Part shown: positions 57,098 to 58,400 of the stretch, one piece after another
Numbering within the stretch: the first letter of the stretch is position 1
Layout of the letters: each line of letters begins with the position of its first letter
From: the human T2T-CHM13v2.0 reference genome, Homo sapiens
NCBI GenBank assembly: GCA_009914755.4
Contig: CP068257.2
Coordinates: 21,536,001 to 21,600,000, forward strand
Length of the DNA stretch: 64,000 nt
Direction: 5' to 3'
Notes under the pieces: generated by a model
Database searches by the model: none
What the model was told of the DNA's origin: nothing
What the model saw: only the letters and a program-made list of their open reading frames with translations
Program-made: the position numbers and the translations under genes

Positions 57098-57300
57098 AAA
57101 AATAAACAAATAAAGGATAAAAAAATCTCTTCTCATCCTAGAATCTTTTTAAACGCTCCACAGCATCAATGTGTTATTCTTGGTCTGAGATGTACACTTC
57201 TTTACGTAAATATGGTTTTTTTAACGTAATACTCAGCCAAGCTATCTGCTATCATCTGTTTATCCATCTTTTGGTTGTTTCACTTAATGTTATTTCACGT
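57098..57300 (+). repeat. Copy A of a ~200-bp duplicated block (pairs with 58193-58400; ~85% identity, ~1.1 kb apart)
   Basis: aaaaataaacaaataaaggataaaaaaatctcttctcatcctagaatctttttaaacgctccacagcatcaatgtgttattcttggtctgagatgtacac...agccaagctatctgctatcatctgtttatccatcttttggttgtttcacttaatgttatttcac. Confidence 0.75.
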
Positions 57301-57909
57301 TTTAAAAAAAGGTTCTACTTGTTTGTTTCAGTTATTTTGAGATAGTGGACTGTAAGACATCCTATTCCAAAATGAGTTACAAATTCGATGTAAATATCCA
57401 ACTAATATCAAGTTCTACTGACAGTTCACTGAGTTTAATTCACTATGTATACATAGTCAGTTACTAGTCTGCCATCACATTTTATAAAAACAGTTCTGAC
57501 AAGTCTTCACATTTGTAGCAATTTAATAGAGCGATATGGAATGTAAATGAACTAGAAAATAATGCATTAGAAGCTCCACATATCTAAATTAGGATGGATA
57601 CATTAATACTCTCATTATTGGTAACTGCCAGCATTTTTAGCTAGGTAATGACCTGTATGATTATGTTTTTATATAAACCAGAATGCTATCAAACTTAAAA
57701 TGAAGACAAAGTATATTAAAACTAAGCATAAATACAAATATAACCGATATTCTTAAGAATATTAATTTTCAGTGGATTTTGACATTAAACTTATATTTCA
57801 AGTATTAAAACACATATTTCCCAGCACACTATGACTTTTACAATTTTATAAAATCAAATTTATTGTCTTCCCTTTGAATGTTCTTGAATTCTTTTGATTC
57901 TTAAAATGT

Positions 57910-58218
57910 CCTCTGGGTGCAGTGGCTAATGTACGTAATCCTAGCACTTTGGGAGGCTAAGGCAGGAGGATCACATGAGGTCAGCAGTTCGAGGCCAGCC
58001 TGGGCAGCATAGTGAAACCCCATCTCTAAAAAATTAAAAAAAAAATAACTAGGCATGATGGCATGTGTTTGTAGTCCTAGCTACTTGAGAGGCTGAGATG
58101 GGAGGCTTGCTTAAGCCTAAGAGTTTGTTGTTACAATGAGCTATGATAGTGGACTACACAGCAGCCTGGATGACAGAGAGCGATCCTGTCTCTAAGAAAT
58201 AAACAAATAAATAGAAGA
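57910..58218 (+). mobile_element. Alu (plus; older AluJ/S-like, diverged) with an (AAAT/AAAC)-type tail
   Basis: ctctgggtgcagtggctaatgtacgtaatcctagcactttgggaggctaaggcaggaggatcacatgaggtcagcagttcgaggccagcctgggcagcatagtgaaaccccatctctaaaaaattaaaaaaaaaataactaggcatgatggcatgtgtttgtagtcctagctacttgagaggctgagatgggaggcttgcttaagcctaagagtttg...cagcctggatgacagagagcgatcctgtctctaagaaataaacaaataaatag. The probable TSD is taaaatgtcct (upstream) / taaaaatgctct (downstream). Confidence 0.85.
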
Positions 58219-58400
58219 TAAAAATGCTCTTCTCATCCTAGAATCTTTTTATATGTTCCACAGTATCAATATGCTATTCTTGGTTTGTGGTATACACTTT
58301 TTTACATTAATTTTTTTTTAACTTAATGTTCAACCAAGCTATCTGCTTTATTTTATTTATCCACCCTTGGTTATTTCACTTAAATATAACATTTTGATTT
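58193..58400 (+). repeat. Copy B of the ~200-bp duplicated block (Alu tail plus downstream flank)
   Basis: agaaataaacaaataaatagaagataaaaatgctcttctcatcctagaatctttttatatgttccacagtatcaatatgctattcttggtttgtggtatacac...accaagctatctgctttattttatttatccacccttggttatttcacttaaatataacatt. Confidence 0.75.

What the first reader, a model, noticed from the sequence alone, without database searches (positions are those of the whole stretch)
57098..58400. Duplicated ~200-bp block carrying an Alu A-tail and TSD but no Alu body
Copy B (58193-58400) starts with the A-rich tail of the Alu at 57910-58218 (aaataaacaaataaatag), followed by the Alu's 3' TSD (ataaaaatgctct) and about 180 bp of flank. Copy A (57098-57300), 1.1 kb upstream, has the tail-like aaaaataaacaaataaagg, a TSD-like ataaaaaaatctct and the same flank at about 85% identity, but no Alu body precedes it. 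Three explanations fit. It could be a segmental or tandem duplication that post-dates the Alu insertion with a breakpoint in the Alu tail. It could be an orphan 3'-transduction-like copy, that is a tail plus flank retro-copied without the element. It could be deletion of the Alu body from one copy of an older duplication. All three are uncommon enough to be worth resolving.
Basis: seen in the sequence. Interest (0 to 1): 0.5.

Follow-up and report, generated by a model that had tools for sequence, protein, structure and literature searches.

The report
Old local duplication starting at Alu tail
A 195-base stretch made of an old Alu element's A-rich tail plus the DNA just downstream of it was copied once, long after the Alu arrived, and now also sits 1.1 kb upstream without the Alu; this is an ordinary relic of primate genome rearrangement, not a new kind of element.

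Summary
The duplication is real: 57093-57287 matches 58190-58383 (about 80-83% identity, E 3e-41). There are only two copies in the window and no homology in the outer flanks. Its left edge coincides, within about 4 nt, with the junction between the Alu body (57911-58192, AluJ-like) and its tail. Copy A has no Alu remnant beside it.

Divergence dating puts the Alu first. Its non-CpG distance to consensus is 0.21-0.30, against 0.095 per lineage for A versus B. The A-rich leader diverges like the rest of the block. All six other Alus in the window have 20-55 nt tails, so B's leader is this Alu's tail and was copied along with the flank.

Copy A lacks a TSD and a poly-A, and the unit contains Pol III terminators, so an orphan-transduction-like retro-copy is not supported.

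Best reading: a DNA-level local duplication after the Alu insertion, either by template switching or by a 1.1-kb tandem duplication followed by a deletion. A rival I could not exclude is a single retro-insertion of spacer plus Alu flanked by a 195-bp target-site duplication. Telling these apart needs outgroup primate loci, which these tools could not reach. Low interest.

The parts
57093..57287 (+). Copy A of the duplicated block: A-rich leader, TSD-like stretch and about 157 bp of unique unit, with no Alu body upstream
   Evidence: Local alignment to 58190-58383, 80.3% over 198 columns. No Alu similarity in 56950-57125 on either strand.
57098..57126 (+). A-rich leader of copy A (aaaaataaacaaataaaggataaaaaaat), homologous by position to the Alu tail of copy B
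   Evidence: In-register alignment; 15.8% divergence across 57093-57130 versus 17.0% for the rest of the unit. Exact 15-mer shared only with 58197-58211. Sequence alone is generic for Alu tails.
57288..57910 (+). Spacer Z1 (623 bp, 28% GC) between copy A and the Alu; no paralogue in the window
   Evidence: Self-blastn of 56000-60000 against the window gives no hit for this stretch. No homology to 58384-59000. No Pfam or L1 similarity.
57903..57912 (+). Candidate 5' TSD of the Alu (AAAATGTCCT), preceded by TT as expected at an L1 endonuclease site
   Evidence: Best anchored match to the 3' region, 8/10, but P about 0.29 against random flanks.
57911..58192 (+). Alu body, AluJ-like and the most diverged Alu in the window
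   Evidence: Alignment to remembered AluJo/Sx/Y consensus sequences, best AluJo at 76.8%. Rfam SRP sub-threshold hits on both monomers. Non-CpG JC distance 0.21 or 0.30 against a leave-one-out in-window consensus.
58193..58220 (+). A-rich tail of the Alu, which is the leader of copy B (taagaaataaacaaataaatagaagata)
   Evidence: It directly follows the last body bases GTCTC. Its length is typical of the 20-55 nt tails of the six other Alus in the window.
58221..58230 (+). Candidate 3' TSD of the Alu (AAAATGCTCT), lying inside the duplicated block
   Evidence: the match is not significant on its own.
58190..58383 (+). Copy B of the duplicated block, attached to the Alu body; the parental copy under the preferred model
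57273..57302 (+). Right junction of copy A: an imperfect 15-bp tandem (GGTTGTTTCACTTAA / TGTTATTTCACGTTT, 10/15) straddling the end of homology
   Evidence: Sequence inspection. Significance not established. It could be a junction microhomology or later slippage.

Best explanation
An old AluJ-type element inserted at 57911-58220. After it had been in place for roughly half of its present age, a block of about 195 bp was duplicated at the DNA level within the same locus. The block starts at, or within about 4 nt of, the Alu body/A-tail junction and runs through the tail and about 165 bp of 3' flank. Copy B (58190-58383), still joined to the Alu body, is the parental copy. Copy A (57093-57287), about 0.9 kb upstream of the block's origin and in the same orientation, is the derived copy. 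The most likely route is replication-based. One option is two template switches: forward to the A-tail, then back to the start of the spacer. The other is a 1.1-kb tandem duplication of spacer-Alu-tail-unit, followed by a deletion that removed the first spacer and Alu body. Shown here: the extent of the block, the order of events (Alu first), the absence of retro-copy hallmarks, and the absence of coding or RNA-family content. Inferred: the direction (B to A) and the replication-based mechanism. The element has no evident function and is a neutral structural relic.
For: The block is discrete. Outer flanks show no collinear homology: the left-flank match is marginal and about 70 nt out of register, and the right flanks show nothing. 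The left edge falls at the Alu body/tail junction. For the order of events, the Alu's non-CpG JC distance is 0.213 to AluJo and 0.299 to a consensus built only from the five other full-length Alus in the window, whereas A versus B is 0.190, or 0.095 per lineage. If the duplication predated the Alu, 32 or fewer differences in 191 sites would have P 7e-7 at K=0.213, 3e-4 at K=0.173 (my rough adjustment for base composition) and 5e-3 at K=0.15. The leader diverges at the same rate as the unit (15.8% vs 17.0%), as expected if both were copied in one event. All six other Alus with an intact 3' end have 20-55 nt patterned A-rich tails. If B's leader were not the Alu's own tail, this Alu would have a tail of 5 nt or less. 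A-rich 34-mers occur only about 20 times on the two strands of the window, so an independent tract in register by chance is improbable. The best TSD candidate lies inside the block and starts at a TT|AAAA site, which is consistent with the model but not significant. Copy A has no TSD and no poly-A. No Pfam domain is found in any of the six frames, and the only Rfam hits are those to the Alu.
Against: Nothing in the window shows directly which junction is ancestral, L|leader or Alu body|tail, so the direction B to A is an inference. The Alu's TSD, which would prove that the leader was created by the Alu insertion at this site, is not better than chance (P 0.29). No clear microhomology is seen at either junction of copy A. 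A breakpoint within about 4 nt of the Alu body/tail junction is a coincidence under this model unless A-tails are breakpoint hotspots. The L|leader junction (TT|AAAAA) looks like an L1 endonuclease site, which the rival long-TSD model predicts. Gene conversion between older paralogues could make A and B look younger than they are.
Confidence: 0.55

Rival explanations
1. Model T: copies A and B are the two halves of an abnormally long (~195 bp) target-site duplication made by one L1-mediated retro-insertion. The inserted cDNA is the spacer plus the Alu body (57288-58192). It was copied from a longer RNA from another locus and primed on that RNA's Alu A-tail by the T-rich bottom strand of a pre-existing A-rich tract, the leader. 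Under this model the Alu never inserted here as an Alu.
For: The model explains mechanistically why homology begins exactly at the Alu body/tail junction. It explains why the Alu is older than the duplication, why the Alu has no significant TSD of its own, and why the outer flanks are unrelated. The junction 57097|57098 reads cgctaTT|AAAAAt, a perfect L1 endonuclease site. L1-mediated insertions flanked by direct duplications, with an endonuclease motif at the 3' breakpoint, are documented (PMC7058536).
Against: B has no extra A residues relative to A between the Alu body and AAATAAAC. At most TAAG intervenes, so the cDNA would have had to be primed at the very first A residues of the RNA's tail. 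The leader looks like a typical Alu tail, yet under this model it would be a free-standing A-rich tract with no retroelement to its left. CTATT in A versus CTCTA in B match at 3 of 5 positions just left of the A-run, which hints that homology extends into the last Alu bases. TSDs of about 200 bp are rare. No parental spacer+Alu locus could be searched for.
Confidence: 0.17
2. The unit, including its A-rich leader, is a member of an unrecognised interspersed repeat family. A and B are two independent or older copies, and the Alu happened to land at the edge of B.
For: An identity of 80% is within the range seen between copies of old repeat families. Genome-wide copy number could not be measured.
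Against: There is no third copy in 64 kb, even at E 1e-3 with 7-nt words. Two copies 1.1 kb apart, in the same orientation and with identical end points, are unlikely for a sparse family. The Alu would be left with a tail of 5 nt or less, unlike all six other Alus. The Alu is older than the A/B split. There is no similarity to L1 or Alu, and no Pfam or Rfam family.
Confidence: 0.08
3. Copy A is an RNA-mediated copy: a 5'-truncated retro-copy of a transcript running from the Alu tail into the flank.
For: The copy starts at an A-tail. An A7 run lies at 57303-57309, 15 nt beyond the end of homology. Orphan transductions are an established phenomenon for L1 (PMC7058536).
Against: No TSD flanks copy A (P 0.40), and the 15-25 nt between the end of homology and the A7 run do not match B (P 0.89). 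There is no AATAAA/ATTAAA near the unit's right end. T5, T6 and T9 runs at 58246, 58298 and 58311 would terminate a Pol III transcript started in the Alu long before 58383 (runs of four or more T act as Pol III terminators, PMC3415434). A sense retro-copy should carry its A-tract at the 3' end, not the 5' end.
Confidence: 0.05
4. The duplication is older than the Alu. Both units carried an ancestral A-rich leader, and the Alu later inserted immediately upstream of the leader in B, with loss of its TSD or a target-site deletion.
For: The A-rich leader would be a good L1 endonuclease target. The Alu's TSD is not significant. Target-site deletions at Alu insertions are known (from my own knowledge, not checked here).
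Against: The age test rejects this order (P 7e-7 to 5e-3 for an Alu age K of 0.15 or more; measured 0.21-0.30), unless gene conversion later homogenised A and B. The Alu would have almost no tail of its own. No copy of the leader lies 5' of the Alu, as a TSD would require.
Confidence: 0.05

Closest known systems
Small local (insertional or tandem-derived) duplications with breakpoints in Alu A-tails, as in replication slippage or template-switch models (FoSTeS/MMBIR, serial replication slippage). Named from my own knowledge; no paper on these models was read here.
   Same: It is a direct-orientation copy of a few hundred bp within about 1 kb of its source. One breakpoint falls in or at an A-rich low-complexity tract. 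It lacks retrotransposition hallmarks.
   Different: No clear junction microhomology could be demonstrated after about 10% divergence per copy. The copy is dispersed (905 bp of unrelated DNA lies between the copies) rather than head-to-tail. The intermediate states are unknown.
L1-mediated duplication, meaning a retro-insertion flanked by an over-long target-site duplication (PMC7058536)
   Same: The architecture is duplicate, then inserted cDNA ending in an A-rich tract, then duplicate. There is a TT|AAAA endonuclease motif at the start of the upstream duplicate.
   Different: The insert would be a non-L1 RNA fragment ending in an Alu. Almost no poly-A lies between the insert and the downstream duplicate. 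The documented cases are somatic and much larger.
Orphan 3' transduction (PMC7058536)
   Same: Unique sequence found downstream of a retroelement appears at a second site without the element's body.
   Different: Copy A has no poly-A and no TSD. The A-tract is at the 5' end of the copy. The putative source is an Alu, whose Pol III transcript would terminate 54 nt into the flank.
Ordinary AluJ insertion with a patterned A-tail
   Same: Copy B's left part is exactly this: a dimeric body plus a 26-30 nt degenerate tail of the AAAT/AAAC type, like the other Alus in the window.
   Different: The TSD cannot be demonstrated. This Alu is markedly more diverged than its neighbours.

Membership tests
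Alu SINE (element at 57911-58220) | Dimeric 7SL-derived body of about 280 bp with an A-rich linker | tested here: met
   Aligns to consensus positions 5-289 of a remembered AluJo sequence at 76.8%. Rfam Metazoa_SRP sub-threshold hits on both monomers. Matches six other Alus in the window.
Alu SINE (element at 57911-58220) | A-rich 3' tail directly after the body | tested here: met
   TAAGAAATAAACAAATAAATAGAAGATAAAAA follows GTCTC. The other six Alus have 20-55 nt tails.
Alu SINE (element at 57911-58220) | Flanking target-site duplication | tested here: inconclusive
   Best candidate AAAATGTCCT / AAAATGCTCT matches 8/10, with P about 0.29 against random flanks. That level of decay is expected for so old an element.
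Orphan 3' transduction or other retro-copy (copy A) | Poly-A tract at the 3' end of the copied segment | tested here: not met
   Homology ends at 57287. The A7 run at 57303-57309 is separated from it by 15 nt that do not match B.
Orphan 3' transduction or other retro-copy (copy A) | Target-site duplication flanking the copy | tested here: not met
   Left flank versus right flank gives score 8 against a null of 7.3, P 0.40.
Orphan 3' transduction or other retro-copy (copy A) | A source transcript able to read from the element through the whole transduced segment | tested here: not met
   T5, T6 and T9 runs at 58246, 58298 and 58311 lie inside the unit, and no AATAAA/ATTAAA lies near its end. 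Pol III terminator rule from PMC3415434.
L1-mediated insertion with a long target-site duplication (Model T) | Direct duplication immediately flanking the inserted cDNA on both sides | tested here: met
   Copy A ends at 57287, where the spacer begins, and copy B begins at 58190-58193, where the Alu body ends.
L1-mediated insertion with a long target-site duplication (Model T) | L1 endonuclease motif (TT|AAAA on the insert's sense strand) at the start of the duplicated target | tested here: met
   The sequence at 57093-57103 reads ctaTT|AAAAAt.
L1-mediated insertion with a long target-site duplication (Model T) | Poly-A between the insert and the downstream duplicate | tested here: not met
   B has no A residues in excess of A. 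Only TAAG separates GTCTC from AAATAAAC.
L1-mediated insertion with a long target-site duplication (Model T) | A parental locus for the inserted sequence elsewhere in the genome | not testable with these tools
   No host genome is available. There is no paralogue of 57288-57910 within the window.
Simple tandem duplication | Head-to-tail adjacency of the copies, or full-length homology across the 1.1-kb period | tested here: not met
   905 bp separate the copies, and 57288-57900 has no homology to 58384-59000. TRF reports no such array.
Interspersed repeat family | Many dispersed copies sharing the same termini | tested here: inconclusive
   Only two copies in 64 kb. The 20-mer probe gave only chance hits in genome and metagenome collections and none in the viral collection.
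L1 3' end fragment (my own early suspicion for the unit and its left flank) | Sequence or translated similarity to the L1 ORF2 C-terminus or 3'UTR | tested here: not met
   No Pfam hit in six frames. Similarity to the in-window L1 at 27500-30200 is at shuffle level. Remembered L1M sequences hit four other L1 copies in the window but nothing in 56700-58400.

The most novel reading that the evidence does not exclude
Copies A and B are a ~195-bp target-site duplication made in the germline by a single L1-mediated retro-insertion of a non-autonomous RNA fragment (623 bp of unique sequence plus an embedded old Alu), primed on the Alu's A-tail. That would be a fixed, evolutionary example of the retrotransposition-mediated duplications so far described mainly in tumours and cell culture. 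It would also mean that this Alu arrived as a passenger rather than by its own retrotransposition.
Probability: 0.17. Interest if true: 0.4.

Novelty: new member of a known kind. Interest (0 to 1): 0.15.

Why it matters
It matters little beyond annotation. The locus is a worked example of how an Alu A-tail marks the edge of a small ancient duplication. It also shows how divergence dating can order an insertion and a duplication when the TSD is too decayed to help. If the long-TSD retro-insertion model turned out to be right, the locus would be a rare germline-fixed instance of an L1-mediated duplication carrying a passenger Alu. That would be of modest interest to people who study retrotransposition side-products. 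Nothing suggests a function: there is no coding potential, no RNA-family match, and neutral-looking divergence.

Tried and rejected
1. **L1 fragment idea.** By eye, the reverse complement of the unit and its left flank looked like an L1M ORF2 end and 3'UTR. I rejected this. There is no Pfam hit in any frame and no similarity to the in-window L1. My remembered L1M sequences, validated on four other L1 copies in the window, do not hit the locus.

2. **Homology beyond the block.** The left flanks give a marginal match (7/300 shuffles) that is out of register in AT-rich sequence. The right flanks give nothing. A test of A's empty site against the pre-Alu flank also gave nothing.

3. **Alu remnant left of copy A.** None was found.

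4. **External copies or orthologues.** The 20-mer TTCTCATCCTAGAATCTTTT gave 0 viral hits, 1 bacterial-genome hit and 1 metagenome hit. Both hits are the bare 20-mer with no flanking homology.

5. **Protein-index route to orthologous contigs.** Two ORFs overlapping the locus are not on record. A homology search with the ORF covering copy A found nothing.

6. **TSD of the Alu.** Not significant.

7. **TSD or poly-A of copy A.** Absent.

8. **Leader specificity.** B's tail is not uniquely similar to A's leader. Another Alu's tail ties with it, so I dropped sequence specificity as an argument.

9. **GC-to-AT asymmetry between the copies.** 17 versus 8, not significant (p 0.11).

10. **Failed call.** One Pfam call failed because translated references contain stop codons. 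I repeated it with X in place of stops.

Full report
**1. The observation**

The sequence at 56500-59200 and the repeat finder show a direct repeat with a spacing of about 1100 bp. A sensitive self-blastn of 56000-60000 against the whole window aligns 57093-57287 with 58190-58383 at 80.3% over 198 columns, E 3e-41. It finds no third copy of the unit; the only other strong hits are the Alu body matching other Alus. Smith-Waterman alignment gives the same end points. A 25-mer shared exactly by both copies occurs nowhere else in the window, even with three mismatches, against an expectation of zero from shuffles.

**2. The Alu**

The best match is AluJo at 76.8%. Both monomers give sub-threshold hits to the Rfam SRP RNA family, as Alus do. 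The body ends with GTCTC at 58192 and the A-rich tract starts at 58193. The 175 nt to the left of, and including, copy A's leader show no Alu-body similarity on either strand.

**3. The limits of the duplication**

With the Alu ignored, the sequence left of the Alu (57500-57910) and the sequence left of copy A (56700-57092) share only a marginal alignment (7 of 300 shuffles do as well). That alignment is about 70 nt out of register and lies in AT-rich sequence. The right flanks share nothing. The duplicated segment is therefore a discrete block of about 195 bp, and its left edge coincides within about 4 nt with the Alu body/tail junction. It is not a simple tandem duplication. The 905 bp between the copies have no counterpart downstream of B, and TRF reports no such array.

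**4. What the unit is not**

- Six-frame translations of 56400-59400 have no Pfam match on either strand, apart from one sub-threshold hit in a low-complexity A-rich stretch well upstream.
- Rfam finds only the Alu.
- My initial impression that the reverse complement looked like an L1M ORF2 end and 3'UTR failed every objective test. Similarity to the in-window L1 at 27500-30200 is at shuffle level.
- My remembered L1M sequences hit four other L1 copies in the window at E 1e-24 to 1e-51, which validates them, but they hit nothing in 56700-58400.

**5. Is the leader part of the duplication?**

The exact 15-mer AAATAAACAAATAAA occurs only at the two leaders, and the leaders align almost without gaps. 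A control tempers this: another Alu's (AAAT)n tail scores as high against A's leader as B's tail does (19 versus 19). Sequence similarity alone therefore does not prove common descent.

The stronger arguments are positional:

- Both A-rich tracts have the same length and sit in register with the unit.
- The leader-plus-TSD segment diverges by 15.8%, against 17.0% for the rest of the unit.
- A-rich 34-mers are rare, with about 20 on both strands of the window.

I conclude that the leader was copied together with the unit.

**6. Is the leader the Alu's own tail?**

All six other Alus in the window that keep their 3' end carry patterned A-rich tails of 20-55 nt directly after the body. B has no A-rich material in excess of A. 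If the leader were not this Alu's tail, the Alu would have a tail of 5 nt or less, unlike all its neighbours.

This is consistent but not demonstrable. AAAATGTCCT (57903-57912) against AAAATGCTCT (58221-58230) is 8/10, and 29% of random 5' flanks from the window reach the same score. For an element this old, a real TSD would look no better than that.

**7. Order of events**

| Comparison | Non-CpG JC distance |
|---|---|
| Target Alu vs remembered AluJo | 0.213 |
| Target Alu vs leave-one-out consensus of the five other full-length Alus | 0.299 |
| Other Alus vs remembered AluJo | 0.12-0.18 |
| Other Alus vs leave-one-out consensus | 0.09-0.12 |
| Copy A vs copy B (32 differences in 191 sites) | 0.190, or 0.095 per lineage |

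If the duplication were older than the Alu, 32 or fewer differences would have the following probabilities:

| Assumed Alu age (K per lineage) | P |
|---|---|
| 0.213 | 7e-7 |
| 0.15 | 5e-3 |

The Alu is therefore about 2-3 times older than the duplication. This excludes 'duplication first, Alu later' unless gene conversion homogenised the copies afterwards.

**8. RNA-mediated copy of tail plus flank**

- Copy A has no flanking TSD (P 0.40).
- Homology does not extend to the A7 run at 57303-57309 (P 0.89).
- There is no AATAAA/ATTAAA near the unit's right end.
- The unit contains T5, T6 and T9 runs starting 54 nt after the Alu body.

Runs of four or more T act as Pol III terminators, and the Alu RNA's unique region lies between the A-tail and that terminator (PMC3415434). 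A Pol III read-through transcript could therefore not cover the unit. Orphan transductions, as defined for L1, are unique downstream sequences mobilised without the element (PMC7058536). They are integrated by the usual L1 mechanism, which normally leaves a poly-A and a TSD. The orphan-transduction-like reading is not supported.

**9. The remaining models**

Two kinds of model fit all of the above.

*Model X* is a DNA-level event after the Alu insertion. It could be two template switches during replication: forward from 57092 to the A-tail, copying tail plus unit, then back to 57288. Alternatively it could be a tandem duplication of the 1,096-bp segment spacer-Alu-tail-unit, followed by deletion of the first spacer and Alu body.

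The cDNA would be spacer plus Alu body, primed on the Alu's A-tail in a longer RNA from another locus. It would have inserted at the endonuclease site cgctaTT|AAAAAt (57097|57098), creating an abnormally long target-site duplication. Insertions flanked by direct duplications, with an endonuclease motif at the 3' breakpoint, are documented (PMC7058536).

Model T explains mechanistically why the homology starts at the body/tail junction, why the Alu has no demonstrable TSD, and why the Alu is older than the duplication.

Against Model T:

- B shows no extra A residues between the Alu body and the start of the duplicate.
- The leader looks like a retroelement tail, yet it would have no retroelement to its left.
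- CTATT/CTCTA match at 3 of 5 positions just left of the A-run.
- TSDs of about 200 bp are rare.

Weighing these, I favour Model X (0.55) over Model T (0.17). The window alone cannot decide between them.

**10. What I could not do**

The decisive tests are outgroup primate loci and a genome-wide search for the unit and for spacer+Alu. Both were out of reach.

- A 20-mer probe gave only chance hits in the bacterial-genome and metagenome collections and none in the viral collection.
- The exact-protein index and the protein homology search hold no gene call from this locus.

**11. Verdict**

The thing is an old, neutral, local duplication of 'Alu tail plus 3' flank' that post-dates the Alu. This is a member of a known kind of Alu-tail-associated rearrangement. 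It is not a new class of element, and it has no sign of function. Interest is low.

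Noticed in passing
window 56577-56696: A second 'A-rich tract plus flank' duplication lies about 450 bp upstream of copy A. It is a 55-bp tandem repeat with 2.1 copies at 81% matches. Each unit is an (AAAAC)n-like tract followed by ...CCCATTGAATAT (repeat finder D3; TRF). 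It could be slippage at a retroelement tail, or a poly-A-only retro-insertion with a ~20-nt TSD.
   Followed up: partly
window 57873-57902: A 10-bp tandem repeat (TTTGAATTCT, 3.1 copies, 76% matches) lies immediately 5' of the Alu. Part of it resembles CTAGAATCTTTTTAT inside the unit (score 9, probably chance).
   Followed up: no
window 57911-58192 compared with the Alus at 15379, 23777, 24995, 36369 and 42549: The Alu of this finding is by far the most diverged in the window. Its non-CpG JC distance is 0.21-0.30, against 0.09-0.18 for the others. No young (AluY-like) Alu was seen among the seven with intact 3' ends.
   Followed up: partly
window 57154, 57205, 57225 versus 58254, 58305, 58322: Copy A keeps three CpGs where copy B has TG, CA and CT. 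Overall, A has G/C where B has A/T at 17 sites against 8 the other way, and the unit's G+C is 0.34 in A versus 0.27 in B. The asymmetry is not significant (p 0.11). It could reflect faster decay next to the Alu.
   Followed up: partly
window 57273-57302: An imperfect 15-bp tandem (GGTTGTTTCACTTAA / TGTTATTTCACGTTT, 10/15) lies exactly at the right end of copy A. The decamer GTTATTTCAC at the start of the spacer is identical to the one near the end of copy B. It could be a junction signature or later slippage.
   Followed up: partly
window 59041-59142 (+): A MIR-like SINE core is present, 70% identical to a remembered MIR consensus over 105 nt at E 2e-9. At first sight it resembles a small exon with splice-site-like edges.
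   Followed up: partly
window 52680-53053 (+), 28331-28924 (+), 9190-9354 (+), 20603-20770 (+): These are L1 ORF2 C-terminal and 3'UTR fragments. They include a 161-aa open reading frame at 28331-28816, which gave no Pfam match.
   Followed up: partly
window 475-795 (-), 1749-2168 (-): Two ORFs resemble a pogo/Tigger-type transposase. The second gives a sub-threshold CENP-B_N hit (E 0.027).
   Followed up: partly
window about 62000-62500 and 63350-63750: ORF translations show CVCVCV/ERERER and YIYIYT patterns. These indicate dinucleotide (GT/GA type) and AT-rich microsatellite arrays.
   Followed up: no
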